From contig MFEK01000014.1 of NCBI GenBank assembly GCA_001779925.1, positions 152,168 through 216,167 of the forward strand: a stretch of 64,000 nt of DNA, written 5' to 3'. Source of the stretch: Candidatus Doudnabacteria bacterium RIFCSPHIGHO2_01_FULL_46_14 (lineage in GTDB: Bacteria; Patescibacteriota; Doudnabacteria; UBA920; 2-01-FULL-46-14). The position numbers were made by a program, and so were the translations under genes. The notes under the pieces are model-generated. The model was not told the origin of the DNA. It saw nothing but the letters and a program-made list of their open reading frames with translations, and did no database searches. This document shows, piece by piece, positions 18,010-57,668 of the stretch (the stretch's first letter is position 1; each line of letters begins with the position of its first letter).

Positions 18010-18081
18010 GACGAGATAGTTCAATTGGTAGAACGGCGGCTTCCAAGCCGTAGGTTGTAGGTTCGATGCCTGCTCTCGTCG
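18010..18081 (+). tRNA. tRNA with a non-canonical anticodon loop: probably Trp(CCA), alternatively Gly(UCC)
   Basis: A perfect 7-bp acceptor stem GACGAGA/TCTCGTC, a tRNA-Trp-like D-arm TAGTTCAATTGGTAGAAC and a T-arm GTAGGTTCGATGCCTGC. The anticodon region GGCGGCTTCCAAGCCGT folds only with a 6- or 8/9-nt loop. Confidence 0.6.
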
Positions 18082-25952: not shown

Positions 25953-26241
25953 GAAAAAGGAGGTAAACGCGAATCGAACCAGACTTTGTTTTCCGAATGT
26001 GCCGCATGAGCGTACGCTAATGCGGCACTAATTTTATTATTGACAGCGTGGTATGTTATTTGTATAATATCTCTAATTGAATAAGAAACCCCTTAATTTA
26101 TTAAGGAAATCACTTTTTCAGTCGATTTTTCTGGGAATACATTATCCCGCGGTTTCGGGAGAGTACCAGCAAAACGAAATAGGCGAGAGCTGACTCGAGT
26201 CAGTTTTTATTACGCCCAACATCTAATCAATAAAGAACAGA

Positions 26242-26661
26242 ATGCCTACAATAAACCAGTTAATTCGAAAAAAGCGCCGGCCGCTGATTGCCAAATCAAA
26301 ATCTCCGGCTATGATGCGCGCCCTGAACCTGATCCACAACCGACCAGTGCTGTTGAAATTTGGCAGTCCGTTCAAACGCGGCGTCTGTCTCAAGGTCACT
26401 ACCACTACCCCGAAAAAGCCAAACTCTGCTCTCCGGAAGATTGCTCGTGTCCGATTGACCAATGGCATGGAGGTTACAGCTTACATTCCCGGAGTCGGAC
26501 ATAATCTCCAGGAACACTCAGTAGTAATGATCCGCGGCGGCCGCGTGAAAGATTTGCCGGGCGTTCGTTATCACATTGTCAGAGGAAAACTTGATGCCGC
26601 CGGAGTCGACGGGCGCAGACGCGGACGAAGCAAATACGGAACCAAGAGACCCAAACAATAA
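26242..26661 (+). CDS. rpsL: 30S ribosomal protein S12
   Basis: Near-universal S12 sequence: [11 protein letters not shown]...[10 protein letters not shown]. Confidence 0.97.
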
Positions 26662-26733
26662 GGCAGTAGGTGGTAGCTGGTAGTCAGTAGGAAATTCCTA
26701 CAAGCTACAAGCTAATCCCTACAAGCTAAACAT

Positions 26734-27219
26734 ATGCCACGCAAAGCACGATCATATAAAAAACATAAGATAGACCCAGATCCGAAATACAATAATGTTA
26801 AGGTTGCCAAATTCATCAACAACATTATGGAACGCGGCAAAAAATCTGTCGCGCAAAAAATCGTTTATGAGTCTTTCAATTACATTAAGGAAAAAATGAG
26901 CACAGAGCCGCGCCAGGTTTTTGACACAGCCCTCAAAAACGTCAGTCCGATTTTAGAAGTAAAAAGCAGGCGCATCGGCGGCGCCAATTACCAGGTGCCG
27001 CTTGAGGTTACAGAGCCGAGAAAAACCACTCTCGGCATGCGTTGGTTGATAAAAGCTGCGCGTTCCCAAAAAGGCAAGCCAATGCATATCAAGCTTGGCG
27101 AAGAAATAATGTCTGCTTACAAGAACGAAGGTGCAGCTATCAAAAAGAAAGAAGATACTCACAAAATGGCAGAAGCGAATAGAGCGTTCGCGCATTTCGC
27201 AAGATTTCAAAGAAAATAA
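26734..27219 (+). CDS. rpsG: 30S ribosomal protein S7
   Basis: S7 motifs, including the N-terminus [10 protein letters not shown]. Confidence 0.95.
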
Positions 27220-27227
27220 TTAAACCT

Positions 27228-27285
27228 CTCTCCCGTCCCTCGGTAAGCTCGGGACGGCACTCTCTCCTCGTCAGGAGAGAGTAAT
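27228..27285. repeat. Double-hairpin GC-rich element between rpsG and fusA
   Basis: CCGTCCCTCGG-TAAGC-TCGGGACGG and CTCTCTCCTCG-TC-AGGAGAGAG. Confidence 0.5.
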
Positions 27286-27299
27286 AATGAATAATACTA

Positions 27300-29435
27300 A
27301 TGCCTCGCGAAATACCAATAGAACAAACACGTAATATAGGAATCATTGCTCATATTGATGCCGGAAAAACTACTGTAACTGAGGGCATTTTGTATAACAC
27401 GGGTCTTATACACACAATTGGTTCAGTGCACGAGGGCGAAACCACCACAGACTGGATGGAACAGGAGCGCGAGCGCGGCATCACTATAACCGCCGCGGCG
27501 GTGACCTGTTTTTGGACGCCGAAATGGAGCTCTTCGACGGGCTCAGAGCAGGCAAAGAAGCACAAGATCAACATCATTGATACCCCAGGCCACGTCGATT
27601 TTACGGTAGAGGTTGAACGTAGCCTTCGCGTGCTCGACGGCGCGGTCGTGGTTTTTGACGGCAAAATGGGCGTAGAGCCCCAGTCCGAGACTGTCTGGCG
27701 CCAGGCAGATAAATATCATGTGCCGCGCATGTGTTTCATCAACAAGATCAACCAGACCGGCGGCGATTTTTATAAATCACTCGATTCCATACACAAACGC
27801 TTGTCTGAGGACGCACACCCGATCCAGATCCCCATTGGTTTTGAAAAAGAAATAGTCGGCTTCGTGGACCTCGTGCAGATGAAAGGCTATACGTACAAAG
27901 ACTACACTGACAAAGAGTTCACCATTGTTGATATTCCCGCTGACATGAAAGAGAAAGCCGAAAAGTACCGCCACAACCTTTTGGAAAAAGTTTTGGAGAG
28001 CGATGACGTGCTCATGGAAAAATATTTGGCCGGCGGCGAGATCACAGAAAAAGAATTTCTCGGCGCGATCCGCAAAGCTACGCAGTCCGGTAAATTTTTT
28101 CCAGTACTCGGCGGAGACGGTCGCGGCATTATCGTTCAGACCATTCTCGATGGCGTAACCAATTTTTTACCAAACCCCATTGATAAGGGAGCGGTGAAGG
28201 GAATCGATCTGAACACTCAGGTCGAAATTGAACGCCAGCCGAACGACAGCGAGCCTTTCGCCGCGTTGGCTTTTAAAATCGCGACTGATCCGTTCGTGGG
28301 CAAGCTGGCGTTTTTCCGAGTTTATTCTGGCACGCTCGCCGCAGGAAGCTACGTGCTCAATGGTCGCTCGCAAAATAAAGAACGTGTGGGCCGCATCGTG
28401 CGTATGCACGCGGACAGCCGCGAGGAGATTAAAGAAGTTTTTGCCGGAGATATTGCCGCGCTTGTCGGTCCGAAAGATACTTTCACGGGCGACACGCTTT
28501 GTGACATTGATAAACCAGTAGCGCTGGAAAATATTACTTTCCCTGAGCCGGTCATTTCCCAAGCCATTGAACCAAAAACTAAAGCTGACCAGGAGAAAAT
28601 GGGTATTGCCCTGCAAAAACTCGGCGAAGAAGACCCGACTTTTCATATCAAATCTGACGAGGAAACCGGGCAGACGATTATTTCCGGAATGGGCGAGCTG
28701 CATCTCGAAATCATTGTGGACCGGATGAAGCGCGAGTTCAAGGTGGAGGCTAATGTGGGCGCTCCCCAAGTGGCTTACAAGGAAACCTTCCGCAAAACTG
28801 TGGAGGTCGAAGGCAAATACATTCGCCAAACCGGCGGGCGCGGACAATACGGACATGTTTGGTTGCGCCTTGAGCCGCAAGAGCCAGGTCTTGGCCGCGA
28901 GTTTGTGGACGAGATTGTTGGAGGCACTATTCCCAAAGAATATATTCCCGCGGTCGGCAAAGGCATTATGGAAGCCGCGGACAACGGCGTAATCGCCGGG
29001 TTTCCGGTGGTAGATTTCAAGGTCGCGTTATATGACGGCTCTTTCCATGAGGTTGATTCTTCAGAAATCGCTTTCAAAATCGCAGGCAGCAAAGCTTTCC
29101 AGGAAGGCATGAAGCGCGCGGGTCCTGTGATCCTGGAGCCGGTTATGAAGGTAGAGGTTATCACGCCCGAAGAATATATGGGCGACGTGATGGGAGACAT
29201 CTCTGCCAAGCGCGGTGAAATAAAAGAAATGGCAGATCGTGGCAAAAACAAAATCATCACCGCCACAGTGCCTCTGGGCAGTATGTTTGGCTATGCTACC
29301 ACGATAAGAAGCATGTCCCAGGGACAGGCTTCTTATGTCATGGAATTTTCTCATTACGCCGAAGTGCCAAAGAATGTGGCCGAGAAGATCATAGGCGAAG
29401 GTGCAAAGATCCGCGTCGGCCAGGTTGGAAATTAA
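27300..29435 (+). CDS. fusA: Elongation factor G
   Basis: The G-domain signature AHIDAGKTT plus full-length EF-G domains. Confidence 0.97.
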
Positions 29436-29446
29436 AATCCAGAGTT

Positions 29447-29773
29447 ATGGAACTGAAAAATCTCGTAAATATTTTACGATTCGGCGGACGGTTTATCATC
29501 ATTGATACTGATGGTAATCCCAAGGCAGTACTCATGAGTTATCAAGAGTTTGAAGAGCTTATGGTTGATAAGGTCGCCGGAAAACTGATTGACGAACTCA
29601 AAGAGGTAGAGCGAGTCAACGAAGAGATAACCCGCGCCCAGCTCACTGATCTGCGCGAAGAGGTACTCAAAGAAGATTTCGTGATCACCACCCAGCAAAC
29701 CATGGCCTTTTCTCAATATCCTGAAATCCGCGTTGAACCCCTGCCTGACAACATCGAAGAAGAATTTGATTAA
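29447..29773 (+). CDS. Phd/YefM-antitoxin-like small protein with an acidic C-terminal tail; no cognate toxin
   Basis: The N-terminal region GRFIIIDTDGNPKAVLMSYQEFEEL resembles the YefM/Phd fold signature. It starts 11 nt after the fusA stop. Confidence 0.45.
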   Translation: MELKNLVNILRFGGRFIIIDTDGNPKAVLMSYQEFEELMVDKVAGKLIDELKEVERVNEEITRAQLTDLREEVLKEDFVITTQQTMAFSQYPEIRVEPLPDNIEEEFD

Positions 29774-29776
29774 AGC

Positions 29777-29803
29777 AAAACCCGCCGATGAGGCGGGTTT
29801 TAT
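29777..29803 (+). terminator. Rho-independent terminator
   Basis: AAAACCCGCC-GATG-AGGCGGGTTTT. Confidence 0.8.
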
Positions 29804-29857
29804 CATGCCCTATTTGGTGTTATACTCTGATTTATGTTTCAGACCAAAGGAGGTCAA

Positions 29858-30337
29858 ATGCTCGAAGACATGCTTGCTAATATGGACGACGGATTTTTGA
29901 TCCGGCAAAGCACTGCCATCGGTTCGGATAGTATCGGATACATTGATGAAGCTCGCAGCTTTCTCACTGTGCGCGCGAGGCCTGTATTTATTTTCCTCAC
30001 ATTCATCAATTCTGTCCTTAACGAGGCTGGAGTTATGGGTTGTTTGGTGATGGTGACAATGCTGAGGCGACAGCAACAATCTACCACGGACAGCAATTGG
30101 CTTGAGGATATACTTCCGCGATTGGATCACGATACCTGCATTCGCTATGCTGGGGAAATCGGTCAAGATCTGAAGATGTTTTCCGAATCTGTAAGACAAT
30201 TGATAGACAACAGGGCGGGTGCATTCAAAGCAGTGCTATCATGCATGACTCAGGTTTTTGGCGATGAATTCCTTGTCGGTGCTTTGGTCATGCTCGAAAT
30301 GATCCGCCGTGCCGAAGCAATGAAGGTGAATACTTGA
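29858..30337 (+). CDS. Hypothetical protein (island gene B)
   Basis: AAAGGAGG RBS 6 nt upstream of the ATG; no recognised domain. Confidence 0.5.
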   Translation: MLEDMLANMDDGFLIRQSTAIGSDSIGYIDEARSFLTVRARPVFIFLTFINSVLNEAGVMGCLVMVTMLRRQQQSTTDSNWLEDILPRLDHDTCIRYAGEIGQDLKMFSESVRQLIDNRAGAFKAVLSCMTQVFGDEFLVGALVMLEMIRRAEAMKVNT

Positions 30338-30437
30338 AAACAATGGATTCATTGAACGCGGTGCCACAATGCCCGCGTTTTTTTCACCCTTGTACCGCAC
30401 TTTAACCGATCGCGTAAACTGCAGTATATCCTAGCTA

Positions 30438-30475
30438 CCCTGCCAGTAATCCTCGGCCGAGGATTACTGGCAGGG
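30438..30475. repeat. 38-bp perfect palindrome with no spacer: CCCTGCCAGTAATCCTCGG|CCGAGGATTACTGGCAGGG
   Basis: Read directly from the sequence: two exact 19-bp reverse-complement arms with no spacer. Confidence 0.9.
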
Positions 30476-30494
30476 TGTTCCTGCAAAATCTTGG

Positions 30495-30559
30495 GCAAAA
30501 TAAAAAAAGCTGTCTCGCGTCGTGCGAAACAGCTTTTTAAAAACGAATCAAACTCCTCC
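30495..30559. terminator. Bidirectional terminator module (copy 1 of a roughly 65-bp direct repeat)
   Basis: A-run, GCTGTCTCGCG...GCGAAACAGC hairpin and T-run. It is nearly identical to 31419-31481. Confidence 0.7.
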
Positions 30560-30568
30560 GTAAAAACG

Positions 30569-31330
30569 TCAACGCACAATACTTAAATCGTGCAGATACT
30601 GCTTGCGGAACTCGAATATTTCGCTTAGCCGCCTTCCATCAAACTCGCGGCCGAATCGGAACACTATGGTATCGTCGGGAATTTCGTAGGAATAGACTCC
30701 GTTGACACCTCCGCCCACTACTTTCCAGCCCTCCATCCGAGATTCATCTATCTGGTTTGAGTATACGAGGACTGAAAATTCGGTTCCTTTGAAGAAGCGG
30801 GTTCGCCCAAGTTCAGCTTCATCAGCTTTTTCTTCGCTCCAGAGCATAATGGAATTGGGGACCTGCGGGTCCTGACTTTTTTTAGGGTAGAACACGAGAG
30901 TTCCGTCCCTCCTCCATAGCAAAGGTTGATTTCGGTTAAGGCCAACGTTCAGAAGATTTGGCCATAGCGCGTGCAGTGTTACCACGATCTTGTCGTGATG
31001 TTCGGCGAACCATCCCGAGAGAATCATAGGAAACGAGAACATCATGTTTTCATTCTTTCCGACAGACTCGCGGAGCCTCTTGCTCGTCAAGGCGGCCATG
31101 ACTCCATTGTTTTCTTCTTCTGTTTTGCGCTGGCAGACGCACAAACAGCATATGATCATAGACGCAAGTGTGTCATGACCGTACGTTACCAATAGACTCA
31201 ACGCCCACGCCAGAGTTGTGAATCCTTGCGTTTGAACCGTTTCTCGTATTTTCCTGCTATATAGCATGGCTTCTCTCCTCCTTCGGAGATTCTTTATGTA
31301 ATTCTGTTCTGTAATCCGTCCAATGGACAT
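30569..31330 (-). CDS. Hypothetical protein (island gene C)
   Basis: The start was set at the ATG at 31330 (GAGGA RBS, plus an upstream TTGCTT-17-TATTAT promoter-like sequence). A strong-RBS ATG at 31267 is an alternative. The ORF-track start at 31483 reads through the terminator repeat. Confidence 0.5.
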   Translation of the reverse strand: MSIGRITEQNYIKNLRRRREAMLYSRKIRETVQTQGFTTLAWALSLLVTYGHDTLASMIICCLCVCQRKTEEENNGVMAALTSKRLRESVGKNENMMFSFPMILSGWFAEHHDKIVVTLHALWPNLLNVGLNRNQPLLWRRDGTLVFYPKKSQDPQVPNSIMLWSEEKADEAELGRTRFFKGTEFSVLVYSNQIDESRMEGWKVVGGGVNGVYSYEIPDDTIVFRFGREFDGRRLSEIFEFRKQYLHDLSIVR

Positions 31331-31418
31331 TGGATCGGTGTCCTCACTATCTTCAGAATTAACAAAATATAATACATCGTTTTTCCCAAAAAAGCAAGGG
31401 CACAGTTTTCTCGACTTT

Positions 31419-31481
31419 GGCAAAATAAAAAAGCTGTCTCGCGTCGTGCGAAACAGCTTTTTAAAACGATCAAACTCCTCC
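31419..31481. terminator. Bidirectional terminator module (copy 2)
   Basis: Same A-run/hairpin/T-run sequence as 30495-30559; it ends the minus-strand operon. Confidence 0.7.
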
Positions 31482-31492
31482 ATAGAGTTTTG

Positions 31493-31690
31493 TTAGTAAG
31501 CTCCGACCGGGTTTCGAAGCCAATCAGCGCACTCCTTTCGATCGCGGCCGATATAGATCTCAGCACCGTTGAGAGAATGATCAACGATCACGAACGTTCC
31601 GTCGGTCGCGTTTTCAATCGTGCATTCGAGTGCGTTCCAGTGAGCCTGAAACTCAGGTGGGTACACAAATCCGAATTGTTTGTTTTCCAT
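31493..31690 (-). CDS. Hypothetical small protein (island gene G)
   Basis: A 65-aa ORF 22 nt downstream of gene F with a GAGGT RBS. Confidence 0.4.
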   Translation of the reverse strand: MENKQFGFVYPPEFQAHWNALECTIENATDGTFVIVDHSLNGAEIYIGRDRKECADWLRNPVGAY

Positions 31691-31712
31691 TTCTGGACCT
31701 CGTTTTTTGGGA

Positions 31713-32021
31713 TTACCAAGGTTTGATTTTCCAGTCGTCGGCTTGACCGGCTGTGGTGGCGAGAAAAGCAGATTTGAAGCTTTCGTAGTCAGCCCGCGTT
31801 AGTTCATCGTGTTGCCCGTACCCATCGATCGTCAGCCTTTCCGGCACGGTCTCACCTTCTCTCACGAGAAAATGATGTTTGCTGTACAGGTAGTCCCGAA
31901 GAGCCGGAAACTCGCCGATAGCGCCATTCCTTAGACTACTGAGCGCAAATAAGGCATCGTTGAATTGCTTGCGGTCTCGGGCCTTTGCGTCCTGGTTATT
32001 CCAAAATCTTCTGGCGTTCAT
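31713..32021 (-). CDS. Hypothetical protein (island gene F)
   Basis: GAGGAGG RBS; a 102-aa ORF with no recognised domain. Confidence 0.5.
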   Translation of the reverse strand: MNARRFWNNQDAKARDRKQFNDALFALSSLRNGAIGEFPALRDYLYSKHHFLVREGETVPERLTIDGYGQHDELTRADYESFKSAFLATTAGQADDWKIKPW

Positions 32022-32052
32022 GTGTCCTCCTCTAGAAAATTAGGGATCGTCT

Positions 32053-32137
32053 TTCTCCCTTCAAAATCCACTTTAGAAAAATGAACTTGGAAGGTCATAG
32101 AGCGAACCGCACGAATTGCGCGATTCGCTCTGTTGGG
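32053..32137. promoter_or_regulatory. Repeated operator-like module, copy 1
   Basis: An IR CCCTTCAAA-N-TTGGAAGG plus the nested palindrome AGAGCGAACCGC-N-GCGATTCGCTCT at 32098-32130. Confidence 0.5.
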
Positions 32138-32139
32138 TA

Positions 32140-32457
32140 TCACTGCGTTGGCTGGCTCGAGAGAATTCTGATGCTCAAAAACAAGAACACGACCCAGACT
32201 CCGTAAAACTTTATCCGGAACCAGAAGGCGGCGTTTCGCAGATTCTGGATTTCCATCCAAGCGCGGCCTGGGTTGGCGACTATCCAAGCCTGGGCTGGAT
32301 CAGCGGCTGGATGGCAAAGTGCCGTGAGCGACCGGCGAAGTCGCCGCTGGAAATGCATTTCAAAGACGATCGTGGCTGTCATGGTCGTGACTGCGAGAGC
32401 CATGACGTACCACAAGATTCCCGAAAGCCGGATTACATCTTCCATTTTCTCCTCCAA
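32140..32457 (-). CDS. Hypothetical small membrane protein (island gene E)
   Basis: GGAGG RBS; central TM helices. Confidence 0.45.
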   Translation of the reverse strand: MEEKMEDVIRLSGILWYVMALAVTTMTATIVFEMHFQRRLRRSLTALCHPAADPAQAWIVANPGRAWMEIQNLRNAAFWFRIKFYGVWVVFLFLSIRILSSQPTQ

Positions 32458-32479
32458 ACAATTGAATTTAGGTTTGCTG

Positions 32480-32571
32480 TCCCTTCCAAACCCACCTTAC
32501 TTAAATTTAAAAGTTGAACTTGGAAGGGTCACAGAGCGAATCGCAAATTGCGCGATTCGCTCTGTTGTGTT
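32480..32571. promoter_or_regulatory. Repeated operator-like module, copy 2
   Basis: An IR CCCTTCCAAA-N30-TTGGAAGGG plus the palindrome AGAGCGAATCGC-AAATTGC-GCGATTCGCTCT at 32533-32563, which overlaps the gene D stop. Confidence 0.5.
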
Positions 32572-33049
32572 ACTTGGTCGTTCGAGACATGAGCGCGAAA
32601 ATTTTTCCTGAACCGTCGCTGTAAAGGCCGCTTTTCTTGTTGCTATAGTGCGCGGTCAGAATAACTTTTCGTTTTGCCGGGATCAGGGTTGGGATGCCGC
32701 TCGCGTATACCCAGCCGGTATTAGCTCCCAAAGGGTAATTTGTCCCATTAGCCATGATTTCGAAATTGAGCGTACGCTCATGGGCGCAGACCTGCAGCAA
32801 GACTGCAGCGTCAGCGTATTGAAAACCCACAGGGCGCATCCAATCTCTCTCCACCTCCCACATGGGCCGATGGAAACGGCAGATCAAAACTTCCCGATTC
32901 ACGACTCCATGTCCCCAGTTGCGGAAATGTCCGAAGTGCTGGTCATCGAAATAATCAAAGGTGTCGACGATCTCAGCTTTTAAGAGCATTTCAGGAATTG
33001 TAAGGTCATAGTCAACGTGGCCAAAAAGTCTTGCCAATTTTTCAATCAT
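32570..33049 (-). CDS. Hypothetical protein (island gene D)
   Basis: The start was set at the Met preceded by AAAGGAG; His/Trp-rich; no confident family. Confidence 0.45.
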   Translation of the reverse strand: MIEKLARLFGHVDYDLTIPEMLLKAEIVDTFDYFDDQHFGHFRNWGHGVVNREVLICRFHRPMWEVERDWMRPVGFQYADAAVLLQVCAHERTLNFEIMANGTNYPLGANTGWVYASGIPTLIPAKRKVILTAHYSNKKSGLYSDGSGKIFALMSRTTK

Positions 33050-33218
33050 TTGGAATCTCCTTTCAAATTCAGACTTCACAGGTGCACTATGCACCTCCGT
33101 CCAAACCCTATTCAGAAACTCCGCAAAAAAAGTTTCGAAGGTGCTGTTTTAGAATATCCTCATTTTCATCTATACTAGGTCATGATTTCCTCCTTTAGAA
33201 AATCTCGGGTTTTGCATT

Positions 33219-33262
33219 CTCCTTTCCAAATTCACTAAACTCTTGTAGCAAACTTGGAAGGA
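33219..33262. promoter_or_regulatory. Repeated operator-like module, copy 3 (IR part only)
   Basis: CCTTTCCAAA-N-ACTTGGAAGG upstream of gene D. Confidence 0.4.
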
Positions 33263-33514
33263 AAAACGACTTCCAATCCTAGCATATTTTTGCGGTTTTG
33301 TCGAGCGGGGCTCCATCCTTCATAATCTCCCCCTTATCATGGGGGAGAGAACAGCGGAACATCAAAAAACCCGCCTAATTGGCGGATTGGGATTTTTGGG
33401 CACAGAGTATTATTTTACTCCTTTTTGGCGGTATTGTCAATACTCGAGTTGCTGCTTTTGGCTTAGATAAGCGAAAAGGGAACTTTATTTTGGCTAGGGT
33501 TAGCCAAAAGATGC

Positions 33515-33543
33515 CTGGATTCCGGATCAAGTCCGGAATGACA
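33515..33543. repeat. 29-bp hairpin repeat (copy 2)
   Basis: Identical to 19133-19161. Confidence 0.8.
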
Positions 33544-33670
33544 GGAATTAGGGGGAGAAAATAGCGGAAATCCTTGACTCTGCTGTTCGGAACTGCTATA
33601 TTTTGACAGTTAGCCTGAATTTAATTATAATCTTTAAACAATATTAATCTTTTAGGAGTTACATAAACGC

Positions 33671-34861
33671 ATGGCTGAAGGGAAATTTTCACGAAATAAG
33701 CCCCACATCAACGTTGGAACCATTGGACACGTTGACCACGGCAAGACCACGCTGACCGCAGCGATTACGCATTATTTGGTGTCCAAGGGCATTGCCGGAA
33801 ACAAAGAGCGCTCTTATGACTCCATTGATAACGCGCCGGAAGAAAAGGCTCGCGGCATCACTATCAACACCTCGCACGTCGAATACGAGAGCGAAAAGCG
33901 CCACTACGCGCACGTTGACGCTCCGGGACATGCTGATTACATCAAAAACATGATCACTGGCGCGGCCCAAATGGACGGCGCGGTTTTGGTCGTGTCTGCC
34001 GCTGACGGCCCAATGCCGCAGACTCGCGAACACATTCTGCTTGCGAGACAGGTAGGCGTGCCGCACATCATTGTGTTCCTCAACAAAGTAGACATGGTTG
34101 ATGATAAAGAACTTATTGACCTCGTAGAAGAAGAGGTCCGCGATTTGCTTAACAAATATCAGTACCCGGGTAAAGACACTCCGATCATCCGCGGCTCTGC
34201 TCTCAAAGCTGTTGAAAACGATGCTGCCGGCCTCGAATCTATCGGCAAGCTTGTCGAAACCATGGACACTTATTTCCCAGAGCCGACACGTGACACTGAC
34301 AAGCCGTTCCTCATGCCGATCGAAGACATTTTTTCCATTGAAGGACGCGGCACTGTGGTTACCGGAAGAATCGAGCGTGGCATGATCAAGCTTAACGATG
34401 AGGTGGAAATCATCGGTCTCAAAGACACACAGAAGACTGTGGTGACCGGCATTGAAATGTTCAACAAATCCCTGGACGAAGGCAGAGCTGGCGACAACGC
34501 CGGCATCCTTATCCGCGGCACCAAAAAAGAAGACGTGGAACGAGGCCAGGTTTTGGCCAAGCCCGGTTCAATCACTCCGCATACCGAGTTCGAAGCTGAG
34601 GTATACATTCTGACCAAAGAAGAAGGCGGCAGACATACAGCATTCTTTTCCGGTTACAAACCGCAGTTTTATATCCGCACCACTGATGTTACCGGTGATG
34701 TTACCTTGGCTGCCGGCAAAGAAATGGTTATGCCTGGCGATACAGTTAACCTTACAATCAAGCTCATCAGCCCGGTTGCTTTGGAAGAGAAATCCAAATT
34801 CGCCATCCGCGAAGGCGGGCACACTGTCGGCGCGGGCGTTGTAACCAAGATTCTGAAATAA
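33671..34861 (+). CDS. tuf: Elongation factor Tu
   Basis: [17 protein letters not shown] and NKVD motifs; full-length EF-Tu. Confidence 0.98.
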
Positions 34862-56391: not shown

Positions 56392-56453
56392 GAGCATGTC
56401 ATCCTGAGGTACTTGCGAAGGATCATGAGTTTCTTCGGCGATTACGCTTCAGA

Positions 56454-57668
56454 ATGACAGATAAAAAAATGGAAACACAAACACCAATTCAAACACAAAA
56501 CCCTGTGATCATAACCCCACCTCCTCCTGAGGTTCCTCTACTTTCCAAGGAGGGGCCTAGTGAGGTAAAACCGCATCACCACATCACCTCCTGGGTGGCT
56601 TTGGTGATCATTGCTACAATCGCAGCTACGACTGGTTATCTGCTCTGGGCCAAATCTCAGGAAGCCTGGCCGTTTGATTTTGACGGGCCGTGGAGTGAGG
56701 TCAAGAGAATAGGTTCTCAAAGTGAAACTGCAGGGTGGAACATATGCAAGAATGAGGCTTACGGTTTTGAGGTAAAATATCCTCCGAATTGGAAAGTATG
56801 GAGAGTTGGCGCTCCTGAAGCAAGCGTAAGCTCGTGCGAAGTTGGCTTGCGAACTGCAGGATTTTCGCCTAATCTCCTTGAATTGTCTCTTGAAACGATA
56901 CAACAAATTAATGTTGACGTTGATAGCGAGACGGTAAAAACAATCGAAGATTATAGAGCCAAGCACCCCGAGTTTTTCTATTTTAACGAGATAACTCGAG
57001 AGTCCACTATTGATGGACAGAAGCTGTACTGGTTTGGAGAGAGACTAGCGATTACTTTTTACGATGGCAAGATGTTCAGATTTAGTATGATTCAAAACAT
57101 TGACGAGTCAACCCTCAATCTTTTTTTCTCTACTTTTAAATTTATTAAACAGACCCCGAAGGTGAATGCTTCGAATTGGAATGAGTACTACTATGAAGAT
57201 CAGTTTGAGATACGGTACCCTACAGATTTTCGTTTTATTGATGCCGATGATTCAGGTACTTATCATAATAATTTTTTTCCAAATGACGGCATTGTCATGG
57301 GAACAATTTTGTTTCCCGATCAAAAAGGAACAAATCTTTCCAGCGCTTCAATCAGCATGGCCCGCTATGATGGGTATTTGACCGCAGAAGATTGTAAACT
57401 GTATCGCAACGTCGACAAAATTTCAAAAATGACAGAAACAGAAACTGTTGAATATGAGTTTTATAAGGCAACGATAACTGGTGCAGCAGCTGGTACAAAA
57501 GTTACCCAGTATATTTATCGGCTTTACAATAGCAATTGTTTTGAAATTTCCTTGGATATACGCGTAGGCAACATTGCAAATTATGAGACGGGAACAGTTA
57601 ATGAAGTTGATGAAGACACAATCCTGGATCAATTTAAATCTATATTATCAACCGTTGGAATAATATGA
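56454..57668 (+). CDS. Hypothetical membrane-anchored protein, AT-rich
   Basis: N-terminal TM helix; no recognised domain; noticeably lower GC than its neighbours. Confidence 0.5.
   Translation: MTDKKMETQTPIQTQNPVIITPPPPEVPLLSKEGPSEVKPHHHITSWVALVIIATIAATTGYLLWAKSQEAWPFDFDGPWSEVKRIGSQSETAGWNICKNEAYGFEVKYPPNWKVWRVGAPEASVSSCEVGLRTAGFSPNLLELSLETIQQINVDVDSETVKTIEDYRAKHPEFFYFNEITRESTIDGQKLYWFGERLAITFYDGKMFRFSMIQNIDESTLNLFFSTFKFIKQTPKVNASNWNEYYYEDQFEIRYPTDFRFIDADDSGTYHNNFFPNDGIVMGTILFPDQKGTNLSSASISMARYDGYLTAEDCKLYRNVDKISKMTETETVEYEFYKATITGAAAGTKVTQYIYRLYNSNCFEISLDIRVGNIANYETGTVNEVDEDTILDQFKSILSTVGII

What the first reader, a model, noticed from the sequence alone, without database searches (positions are those of the whole stretch)
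29447..33300. The str operon is split: a 3.9-kb accessory island of unknown-function genes lies between fusA and tuf
rpsL-rpsG-fusA-tuf is normally contiguous. Here fusA is followed by a Phd-like gene, a terminator, a hypothetical gene (B), a 38-bp perfect palindrome, duplicated terminator modules, one opposite-strand gene (C), and a four-gene opposite-strand operon (D, E, F, G). Only then does tuf follow. None of genes B-G has a recognisable domain, and there is no integrase or transposase. The island is studded with repeats, which suggests recent acquisition or rearrangement. Its contents could be a novel system such as a defence, toxin or stress module.
Basis: partly seen in the sequence, partly recalled or inferred. 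Interest (0 to 1): 0.7.

Follow-up and report, generated by a model that had tools for sequence, protein, structure and literature searches.

The report
Swappable gene-cassette array between fusA and tuf
In this groundwater Doudnabacteria (candidate phyla radiation, CPR) genome, the gap between two core translation genes holds a hypervariable array of orphan genes separated by conserved hairpin elements, and close relatives carry different genes or none at the same site.

Summary
rpsL-rpsG-fusA (to 29435) is separated from tuf (33671) by about 4.2 kb, assembled identically in several independent metagenomes.

The interpretation needs correcting:
- Gene A (29447-29773, YefM/Phd-like) is not cargo. 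It is a conserved Patescibacteria gene found between fusA and tuf in 15 related loci, under strong purifying selection (dN/dS about 0.1).
- The variable part is 29774 to about 33550.
- Its genes B, C, E and G are orphans. C and G match only themselves in billions of proteins.
- D is a small domain, and F a two-transmembrane protein. Both were found only in the equivalent islands of relatives.
- One close relative (EF-G 94-97% identical) has fusA-A-tuf contiguous. Four others carry unrelated cargo, including a HicAB pair, at the same site.
- Homology between relatives ends exactly at these elements or at start codons. R1 and H+J flank C and F as direct repeats.

My best reading is a hyperplastic cassette array shuffled by recombination at conserved regulatory hairpins. 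This resembles the PeSL (promoter-early stem-loop) regions of T4-type phages. Cargo function is unknown. Composition is host-like, and there is no integrase and no phage or plasmid similarity.

The parts
27300..29435 (+). fusA (EF-G). This is the conserved left anchor of the locus.
   Evidence: 711-aa ORF. Pfam EF-G domains are recorded on the public contig. It is 77% identical to the nearest GTDB species and 94% identical to L099/L096.
29447..29773 (+). Gene A. It has a YefM/Phd-like N-terminal domain and an acidic tail. It is a conserved Patescibacteria str-locus gene, not island cargo. It starts 11 nt after the fusA stop codon.
   Evidence: PF02604 E=4e-5, below the gathering score. 8 of 13 family members hit PF02604. 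A-like genes lie between fusA and tuf in 15 of 80 EF-G loci, all of CPR type. dN/dS is 0.07-0.11.
29777..29799 (+). Terminator hairpin after A. This is the left edge of the variable segment.
   Evidence: D4/I1. An equivalent hairpin follows A in L096. It is absent in the empty-site relative L100.
29858..30337 (+). Cargo gene B, a 159-aa orphan with its own RBS. A terminator hairpin follows at 30355-30384.
   Evidence: No family hit. Codon score is 0.131, against a host mean of 0.147. A nonsense variant at codon 17 occurs in one sample. The same slot holds a 99-aa protein in L096/L110 and a HicB/HicA-like pair in L107.
30437..30476 (.). Perfect 40-bp palindrome with no spacer. Its role is unknown.
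   Evidence: (I4). It is unique in the window. Contigs of one sample break at it.
30490..30562 (.). R1a, a copy of the bidirectional intrinsic terminator module (hairpin 30504-30538 with T-runs on both sides). It lies directly 3' of C.
30569..31267 (-). Cargo gene C, a 232-aa orphan. It forms its own transcription unit, with an inferred promoter (TTGCTT-17-TATTAT) at 31369-31397 on the minus strand. It is bounded by R1a and R1b.
   Evidence: Only a self-hit among 5.8 billion clusters. Coding-like in frame. AF2 pLDDT 38. The promoter was read from the sequence and is an inference.
31415..31484 (.). R1b, the second R1 copy. It is orthologous to the single R1 of L096, L098 and L110, and it terminates the G-F-E-D unit.
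   Evidence: 93% identical to R1a. 94-97% identical to R1 of L096/L110, although synonymous sites differ by 44-56%.
31493..31690 (-). Cargo gene D, 65 aa. It is a stand-alone copy of a roughly 55-aa domain (FGFVxP..W..DGT..VID..IY.G..EC..WL).
   Evidence: The domain also occurs in L110's 146-aa protein and twice in its 319-aa protein (E 1e-9 to 4e-6). No Pfam or PDB match.
31713..32021 (-). Cargo gene E, a 102-aa orphan. It has a strong RBS and lies 22 nt upstream of D.
   Evidence: The only IMG/VR hit is spurious.
32046..32140 (-). Junction element copy R2b. It is hairpin H (stem bases ACAGAGC...GCTCTAT) followed by hairpin J (32052-32098, CCTTCCAAG...TTTTGAAGG).
   Evidence: z = -5.8; CM 49.7 bits, E 1.5e-8.
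32140..32445 (-). Cargo gene F, 101 aa with two predicted transmembrane segments. It is bounded by direct repeats R2a and R2b.
   Evidence: Homologues occur only in other islands: L107 (57% identity, E 3e-33) and L103. dN/dS is 0.23.
32470..32572 (-). Junction element copy R2a. It is H (32531-32565) plus J (32476-32531).
   Evidence: z = -7.7; 54.5 bits, E 1e-9.
32570..33049 (-). Cargo gene G, a 159-aa strict orphan.
   Evidence: Only a self-hit in a full HMMER scan of 1.84 billion representatives. Coding-like. AF2 pLDDT 29.
33050..33306 (-). Conserved leader and promoter block of the leftward array. It contains a promoter-like TCGACA-17-TAGGAT (33276-33304), a J hairpin (33216-33265), a 2-codon mini-ORF with a strong RBS, and a GGTGCAnAGnGCACC hairpin.
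   Evidence: It is 77% identical to the leader of the unrelated 146-aa gene of L110, and that homology ends at the start codon. The 31-nt block 33276-33306 is 100% identical to L110 and 93% to L096. The CM hit is 52 bits.
33307..33550 (.). Rest of the conserved right framework, which is absent from the empty site. It holds hairpin 33326-33349, hairpin-terminator 33368-33388, a minus-strand TTGACA-17-TAAAAT promoter (33412-33440), an inverted repeat at 33455-33510, and the 19-nt direct repeat GGGGGAGARAAYAGCGGAA at 33341 and 33551.
   Evidence: about 80% column identity to L096 over the whole right-flank alignment, window 33150-33680; missing in L100/L101.
33574..33631 (+). Two consensus sigma-70-type tuf promoters. 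tuf is transcribed independently of fusA.
   Evidence: 10/12 and 12/12 matches. They are conserved in L096, L100 and L110.
33671..34861 (+). tuf (EF-Tu). This is the conserved right anchor of the locus.

Best explanation
The segment from 29774 to about 33550 is a hyperplastic gene-cassette array at a fixed chromosomal site, between the conserved YefM-like gene A and the tuf promoters. It occurs in a clade of groundwater Doudnabacteria (Patescibacteria).

The non-coding framework is conserved. It comprises:
- the terminator after A;
- the bidirectional terminator R1;
- a double-hairpin junction element (H+J) between successive leftward genes;
- a leader of about 190 nt;
- a promoter block divergent from the tuf promoters.

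The open reading frames held between these elements are lineage-specific orphans, and they are replaced wholesale between close relatives.

Inferred mechanism. The repeated framework elements supply short patches of homology, and cassettes are gained, lost or swapped by recombination at them. An exchange between R1a and R1b would excise C on a 924-bp circle. An exchange between R2a and R2b would excise F on a 432-bp circle.

Inferred expression. G-F-E-D is read leftward from the conserved promoter block and ends at R1b. The H and J hairpins act at the RNA level as stabilisers, partial terminators or processing sites. C and B are separate transcription units.

The cargo proteins are small accessory proteins of unknown function. 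My guess is niche-specific, host-interaction or toxin/immunity-type functions.
For: Shown:
1. Empty site. L100/L101 (EF-G 94-97% identical) have A followed after about 175 nt by tuf. Their homology to the window resumes at about 33552.
2. Same site, different cargo. L096 and L110 (A about 90% identical), L103-L106 (A 55%) and L107 (A 69%) carry unrelated genes.
3. The framework is conserved far above neutral expectation. Between the window and L110, synonymous sites in A and fusA differ by 44-56%. R1 is 94-97% identical and the 31-nt promoter block is 100% identical.
4. Breakpoints fall at element edges. Two strains that are 98.9% identical (L103, L104) lose homology exactly at the outer base of hairpin H, and a different gene follows in each. 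The leaders of window G and of L110's 146-aa gene align up to the RBS and diverge at the ATG.
5. Direct repeats flank single genes. R1 flanks C and H+J flanks F. F homologues sit in different contexts in L103 and L107.
6. J is specific to these islands. A regex and a covariance model find it only there, always on the cargo strand. There are no hits in more than 30 other Patescibacteria loci or in the other 60 kb of the window.
7. H+J fold as tandem hairpins with z-scores of -5.8 to -8.0. The stem has many G.U pairs and two compensatory pairs.
8. The cargo genes look real. They have strong RBSs, host-like codon usage in frame and purifying selection where homologues exist.

Background: the same logic is documented for PeSL elements in T4-type phages (PMC2839356, PMC4122927).
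Against: - Recombination at the elements is inferred from comparisons of static sequences. No excision circle or alternative junction was seen in the window's own population, which is nearly clonal.
- Only 64 kb of this genome could be examined. H, J and R1 could be generic intergenic repeats found genome-wide.
- J and H carry no recognisable sigma-70 promoter, so the parallel with PeSL is incomplete.
- Most comparison contigs are short (1-6 kb) and come from metagenomes.
- The J covariance evidence rests on 9 related copies.
- Nothing is known about cargo function. Both structure predictions failed.
Confidence: 0.55

Rival explanations
1. This is an ordinary replacement-type flexible genomic island. 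The whole fusA-tuf interval is exchanged between lineages by homologous recombination in the highly conserved flanking genes. The internal repeats are only terminators and 5' UTR structures, with no role in recombination.
For: fusA and tuf are ideal recombination anchors. Contig L009 switches from about 78% to 100% identity to the window in mid-fusA (last mismatch at 27641), then carries the identical island to its end. Variable inserts of unrelated content occupy the fusA-tuf gap across Patescibacteria.
Against: The L009 switch cannot be told apart from an assembly chimera. Breakpoints also lie inside the island, at hairpin and leader edges. Single genes are bracketed by direct repeats. The framework is shared while the cargo differs, which whole-island replacement does not predict.
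Confidence: 0.2
2. This is an integron-like, site-specific cassette system. The hairpin elements are recombination sites, folded as single strands, for a recombinase encoded elsewhere in the genome.
For: Small, mostly same-strand, orphan ORFs are each followed by a structured imperfect palindrome. A conserved promoter sits at one end. Breaks occur at the ORF/hairpin boundary. G.T/G.U pairing makes the fold strand-specific.
Against: No tyrosine recombinase is found in the island or within about 10 kb. The elements lack the RYYYAAC/GTTRRRY boxes of attC (by inspection). Two different repeat families are involved. J is a near-perfect 17-20-bp stem, not an attC-type bulged hairpin.
Confidence: 0.1
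3. This is a toxin-antitoxin, defence or immunity islet. The cargo genes are small toxins, immunity proteins or membrane effectors, and A is the antitoxin of a local module.
For: A has a YefM/Phd-like domain. L107 carries a HicB-like protein (PF15919, E 9e-8) plus a HicA-like ORF in the slot occupied by B. F is a small two-transmembrane protein. The N-terminus of C weakly resembles the L107 HicB (28% over 64 aa).
Against: A is conserved next to fusA/tuf in genomes that have no adjacent toxin, and it is under strong purifying selection as a core gene. There are no PADLOC hits. The HicB resemblance of C and D is not significant in profile tests.
Confidence: 0.1
4. This is a remnant of an integrated mobile element or prophage, or part of the ORFs are non-coding.
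For: Orphan content and repeats. F scores ambiguously for coding potential. One sample carries a nonsense allele of B.
Against: There are no mobility genes. There is no similarity to IMG/VR, GenBank phages or PLSDB plasmids. GC and codon usage are host-like. F and the D domain are conserved under purifying selection. The framework is shared vertically among relatives.
Confidence: 0.05

Closest known systems
PeSL (promoter-early stem-loop) regulatory cassettes in the hyperplastic regions of T4-type phages (PMC2839356, PMC4122927)
   Same: Short, conserved, composite regulatory motifs containing stem-loop terminators are repeated between small orphan genes. These genes are clustered between blocks of core genes. 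Indels and replacements between close relatives have their end-points in the motifs. Direct repeats flank single ORFans, which could loop out as mini-circles.
   Different: This locus is a bacterial (CPR) chromosome, not a phage. The H+J element has two hairpins and no recognisable sigma-70 promoter. Only R1b with the inferred C promoter resembles a terminator-promoter pair. Mini-circles and terminator activity have not been shown here.
Chromosomal integron cassette arrays (IntI, attI, Pc, attC)
   Same: An array of small, mostly same-strand genes of unknown function. Each gene is followed by a structured palindromic repeat. There is a conserved promoter at one end, and content turns over rapidly between strains. 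Toxin-antitoxin cassettes occur in such arrays, as with the HicAB-like pair in relative L107.
   Different: No integrase is nearby and there is no attC consensus. There are two repeat families. Some cargo lies on the opposite strand with its own promoter.
Replacement flexible genomic islands between conserved core genes (a concept from marine and freshwater pangenomics; cited from my own knowledge)
   Same: A fixed location between conserved genes, host-like composition, no mobility genes, and different content in closely related lineages.
   Different: This locus is only about 3.8 kb. It has an internally conserved non-coding scaffold, and breakpoints fall at the internal repeats.
Phd/YefM type II antitoxins (PF02604)
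   Same: The N-terminal roughly 40 residues of gene A align with the Phd/YefM fold.
   Different: The score is below Pfam's gathering threshold, and the match starts at profile position 13. There is no cognate toxin gene. A is conserved as part of the fusA-tuf locus in many Patescibacteria and has an acidic C-terminal tail.

Membership tests
Integron | An IntI tyrosine recombinase gene adjacent to the array | tested here: not met
   No Pfam or NCBIfam hit for any island ORF. Precomputed Pfam for all called genes within about 10 kb shows no integrase. The rest of the genome was not examined.
Integron | attC sites with R''/R' boxes (RYYYAAC ... GTTRRRY) and a bulged hairpin | tested here: inconclusive
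   By inspection, H and J lack these boxes and form near-perfect stems. No attC covariance model was available.
Integron | Cassettes of one ORF plus a repeat, with turnover between strains | tested here: met
   F is bounded by H+J and C by R1. There is a strain-level swap at the edge of H.
PeSL-type hyperplastic region | Repeated composite motifs with a stem-loop terminator, flanking ORFans between core genes | tested here: met
   R1 has 15-bp stems with T-runs on both strands. H+J fold with z-scores of -5.8 to -8.0. The cargo genes are orphans.
PeSL-type hyperplastic region | A strong sigma-70-like promoter inside each motif | tested here: not met
   The promoter scan finds none in H, J or R1. 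Only an inferred promoter follows R1b.
PeSL-type hyperplastic region | Indel and replacement end-points between relatives lie in the motifs | tested here: met
PeSL-type hyperplastic region | Circular excision products arise from recombination between motifs | not testable with these tools
   This needs read-level data or PCR.
Type II toxin-antitoxin (Phd/YefM with Doc/YoeB/ParE-type toxin) | The antitoxin domain scores above the family threshold | tested here: not met
   A scores 23.6 bits against PF02604, whose cut-off is 29.8. It scores 16.7 bits against TIGR01552, whose cut-off is 20.8.
Type II toxin-antitoxin (Phd/YefM with Doc/YoeB/ParE-type toxin) | An adjacent cognate toxin gene | tested here: not met
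   B has no toxin-family hit. In many genomes A-like genes are followed directly by tuf.
Classical horizontally acquired genomic island | Deviant composition, a tRNA or integrase boundary, and mobility genes | tested here: not met
   GC is 0.44-0.52, like the flanks. Codon scores are within the host range. There is no tRNA in or beside the island. No mobility genes are present.
REP/BIME-type dispersed intergenic repeats | Many copies dispersed around the chromosome | tested here: inconclusive
   There are zero copies of J, R1 or the palindrome outside the island in the 64-kb window. The remaining roughly 90% of the genome was not available.

The most novel reading that the evidence does not exclude
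The locus is a dedicated cassette capture-and-expression site, analogous to an integron but mechanistically distinct. In this reading, a conserved promoter/leader 'slot' and strand-specific double-hairpin elements (H+J, R1) are recognised by a recombination activity that is not yet identified. That activity would continually load orphan, possibly de novo or fast-evolving, genes between two of the most conserved genes of a CPR bacterium.
Probability: 0.15. Interest if true: 0.85.

Novelty: new variant of a known kind. Interest (0 to 1): 0.6.

Why it matters
CPR/Patescibacteria genomes are small and full of genes with no known relatives. How such genes arise, move and are expressed is an open question.

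This locus gives a compact, alignable example. It is a fixed site in the translation-factor operon, where orphan ORFs are exchanged precisely from start codon to stop codon. The surrounding hairpins, leader and promoter stay conserved well above the neutral level.

It yields concrete, searchable elements: a covariance model for J, the R1 core and the H stem bases. These can be used to look for cassette turnover in time-series metagenomes from the same aquifer.

It also shows that a YefM-like gene is a conserved member of the fusA-tuf locus in many Patescibacteria. Automated annotation would mislabel that gene as an antitoxin.

Tried and rejected
- A concatenated B+D+E+F+G query to the protein database returned nothing, not even self-hits. 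It is uninformative and wasted one search.
- AlphaFold2 single-sequence models of C and G had pLDDT 38 and 29, so no fold search was attempted.
- IMG/VR scans for G, C, B, E, the D domain and F found no relatives. The one hit for E (L095) is an out-of-frame match in a high-GC contig.
- tblastn and blastn against GenBank phages and PLSDB plasmids found no match.
- A JGI metagenome scan with the F alignment found nothing.
- The R1 core pattern recovered one contig, L110, which proved very useful.
- Rfam gave no hit at gathering thresholds. At E<1 it gave only weak chance matches on terminators.
- I tested whether the N-terminus of C or the D domain is HicB-like. There is a pairwise BLAST hit of 25.8 bits. 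Pfam, PDB and hhalign give no support. I keep this only as a weak lead.
- I considered contig L009 as evidence of horizontal transfer of the island. I rejected it as evidence, because an abrupt switch from 78% to 100% identity inside fusA is equally well explained by an assembly chimera.
- I considered J as a -35/-10 promoter and rejected it. The spacing between its conserved halves varies from 18 to 26 nt, and no -10 element is conserved.

Full report
**What is there**

The window is part of a Rifle aquifer metagenome scaffold (ANAN16-1 scaffold_981, 73.7 kb). The public protein record names the organism Candidatus Doudnabacteria.

- rpsL 26242-26661, rpsG 26734-27219 and fusA 27300-29435.
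- A 108-aa gene A at 29447-29773, starting 11 nt after the fusA stop, followed by a terminator hairpin at 29777-29799.
- Gene B on the plus strand.
- A perfect palindrome at 30437-30476. It is 40 bp, not 38.
- Gene C on the minus strand.
- Genes D, E, F and G on the minus strand.
- About 620 bp of non-coding DNA, then tuf at 33671.

Shine-Dalgarno sites and the gene calls on public contigs give corrected coordinates: B 29858-30337, C 30569-31267, D 31493-31690, E 31713-32021, F 32140-32445 and G 32570-33049.

The same sequence was assembled 100% identically from several samples and assemblers, so the arrangement is not a misassembly.

There are two duplicated repeat families:
- R1 (30490-30562 and 31415-31484, 93% identical) is a 15-bp hairpin with T-runs on both sides.
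- R2 (about 32046-32140 and 32470-32572, 87% identical).

**Gene A is not cargo**

A matches Phd/YefM only weakly: PF02604 E 4e-5, below the gathering score, starting at profile position 13.

Scanning one genome per GTDB species with EF-G returned 80 loci. In ordinary bacteria the fusA-tuf gap is 17-190 bp. In Patescibacteria-type MAGs it ranges from 81 to 5057 bp.

An A-like gene lies in that gap in 15 loci. These genes share the N-terminal motif xLxxIIxLxKKTGDRxIVxD...VLMxxxEYExL and an acidic tail. Each sits either right after fusA or right before tuf. Eight of 13 aligned members hit PF02604 weakly.

Between the window and its closest relatives, A has dN/dS of 0.07-0.11. No toxin gene accompanies it.

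A is therefore a conserved, lineage-specific member of this operon, not an accessory antitoxin.

**The cargo genes are orphans but look real**
- B-G have no Pfam, NCBIfam, PHROG or PADLOC match.
- C finds only itself among 5.8 billion protein clusters.
- G finds only itself in a full HMMER pass over 1.84 billion representatives.
- There is no similarity to IMG/VR, GenBank phages or PLSDB plasmids.
- GC content and a codon-usage log-odds score trained on the rest of the window are host-like for B, C, D, E and G, in the annotated frame. F is ambiguous.
- AlphaFold2 without an alignment failed for C and G.

**Closer relatives show a hypervariable site with a conserved scaffold**

Homologues of A led to contigs from closer relatives. 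An exact-match scan for the R1 core found a complete 5.3-kb locus, L110.

- L100/L101 (EF-G 94-97% identical): A is followed after about 175 nt of purine-rich spacer by tuf. Homology to the window resumes at about 33552, just upstream of the tuf promoters. This is an empty site.
- L096 and L110 (A about 90% identical): the same site holds other genes. L096 has a 99-aa gene (+), R1, a 311-aa gene (-) and a 144-aa gene (-). L110 has a 186-aa gene (-), the 99-aa gene (+), R1, then 319-aa, 146-aa and 135-aa genes (-).
- L103-L106 (A 55%) and L107 (A 69%) hold yet other genes. L107 carries a HicB-like protein (PF15919, E 9e-8) and a HicA-like ORF in the slot occupied by B.

Only two cargo elements recur. 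F has homologues in L107 (57% identity, E 3e-33, dN/dS 0.23) and L103. The 65-aa D corresponds to a domain present once in L110's 146-aa protein and twice in its 319-aa protein.

The non-coding scaffold, in contrast, is shared:
- R1 is 94-97% identical between the window, L096, L098 and L110.
- The right flank (33207-33670) aligns with L096 at about 80% column identity.
- A 31-nt block (33276-33306) carrying a promoter-like TCGACA-17-TAGGAT is 100% identical in L110.

Synonymous sites of A and fusA differ by 44-56% between the same genomes. These elements are therefore either selected or recently exchanged.

**The junction element**

The R2 repeat is a composite of two parts:
- Hairpin H has conserved stem bases (ACRGAGC...GCTCYGT) and a variable inner stem.
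- Hairpin J follows 2-4 nt later, with the form CCTTCYAAGTTCA...TGRATTTGGAAGG.

A regex and a covariance model built from nine copies find J only in these islands, and always on the cargo strand. The window has three copies (32052-32098, 32476-32531, 33216-33265). Further copies occur in L096, L102-L106 and L110. There are none in more than 30 other Patescibacteria loci or in the remaining 60 kb of the window.

As RNA, H+J fold into tandem hairpins with z-scores of -5.8 to -8.0. The consensus J stem has 17 pairs, many of them G.U, and two with compensatory changes. This favours a structure on the cargo-sense strand.

**Breakpoints coincide with the scaffold**
- L103 and L104 are 98.9% identical through fusA, A, a 101-aa gene, J and H. 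They lose all similarity at the outer base of H. L103 continues with an F-like gene, and L104 with a 135-aa membrane protein.
- Window G and L110's unrelated 146-aa gene share a 190-nt leader. The leader includes J, a mini-ORF and a GGTGCAnAGnGCACC hairpin. It aligns up to the RBS, and similarity ends at the start codon.
- In the window, C is bracketed by direct R1 copies 924 bp apart. F is bracketed by direct H+J copies 432 bp apart. L096 and L110 have a single R1, orthologous to R1b.

**Interpretation**

The best-supported reading is a hyperplastic cassette array. A conserved scaffold of terminator, hairpins, leader and promoter provides both the expression signals and the homology patches at which cassettes are exchanged.

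The closest documented parallel is the PeSL system in the hyperplastic regions of T4-type phages. There, composite terminator/promoter motifs flank ORFans and mediate modular shuffling and mini-circle formation (PMC2839356, PMC4122927). The differences are the bacterial chromosomal setting, the double-hairpin architecture and the lack of a recognisable promoter in H, J or R1.

An integron-like, site-specific mechanism is not excluded, but it lacks an integrase and an attC consensus. Whole-island replacement through the conserved flanks may also occur. Contig L009 switches from about 78% to 100% identity in mid-fusA, but this is equally consistent with an assembly chimera.

Arrays occur in lineages both closer to the window and more distant from it than the empty-site relative. 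The site is therefore probably ancestral to the clade, and only its content is recent. That does not fit 'recent acquisition' of the island as a unit.

The function of the cargo remains unknown. The HicAB pair in L107 and the small membrane protein F are the only hints of a toxin/immunity-type role.

**Limits**
- All inferences about recombination come from comparing static assemblies, most of them short.
- Only 64 kb of this genome was available to test whether the repeats are locus-specific.
- No expression or read-level data could be used.

Noticed in passing
L009 (ERZ27254754 k141_1932348) versus window 26037-33758: A 40.7-kb contig is only 68-80% identical to the window upstream. It becomes 100% identical from window position 27642 (mid-fusA) to its end in tuf. 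This is either an assembly chimera between two co-occurring species or a very recent inter-species recombinant carrying the whole island.
   Followed up: partly
window 56398-56459; L110 1209-1270: A palindromic element of about 62 bp (GTCATCCTGAGG...CAGAATGACA) lies in an intergenic region of the window. An 86% identical copy is inserted between fusA and gene A in relative L110. It looks like a small dispersed hairpin repeat or MITE-like element.
   Followed up: no
window 33050-33440 (minus strand): A near-consensus promoter (TTGACA-17-TAAAAT, 33440-33412) is followed about 25 nt later by a hairpin with a T-run (33388-33368). A hairpin at the same place in L096 has a different sequence. This could be a short RNA, an attenuator, or a bidirectional terminator shielding tuf. 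Further downstream, a strong RBS is followed by a 2-codon ORF (ATG ACC TAG). L110 has a 4-codon equivalent.
   Followed up: partly
window 33341-33359 and 33551-33569: A 19-nt direct repeat, GGGGGAGARAAYAGCGGAA, occurs exactly twice in the window, 210 bp apart. The second copy abuts the tuf -35 box. The empty-site relative has similar purine-rich sequence at the corresponding place.
   Followed up: partly
window 29906: One metagenome (ERZ4903137, contig L012) carries a C>T change that turns codon 17 of gene B into a stop. This suggests B is dispensable in part of the population, or it may be a sequencing error.
   Followed up: no
window 18010-18081: ARAGORN reports a 'tRNA-???' with a two-base anticodon. 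Rfam scores it as a normal tRNA (58.6 bits). The anticodon loop reads CTTCCAA, so it is tRNA-Trp(CCA).
   Followed up: partly
L032, L036, L041, L046, L049, L055 (fusA-tuf gaps of other Patescibacteria): In more distant CPR genomes the variable insert lies between fusA and the A-like gene instead. It carries quite different cargo: prepilin-type N-terminal proteins, a methyltransferase-like and a kinase-like protein, and a 1251-aa surface-type protein. The fusA-tuf interval therefore appears to be a general insertion hotspot in this phylum.
   Followed up: partly
window 30569-31483 (public annotation A2751_03875): The deposited protein for gene C is 304 aa. Its first 72 residues are translated through the R1b terminator repeat and the promoter region. 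The start with a strong RBS gives 232 aa.
   Followed up: yes
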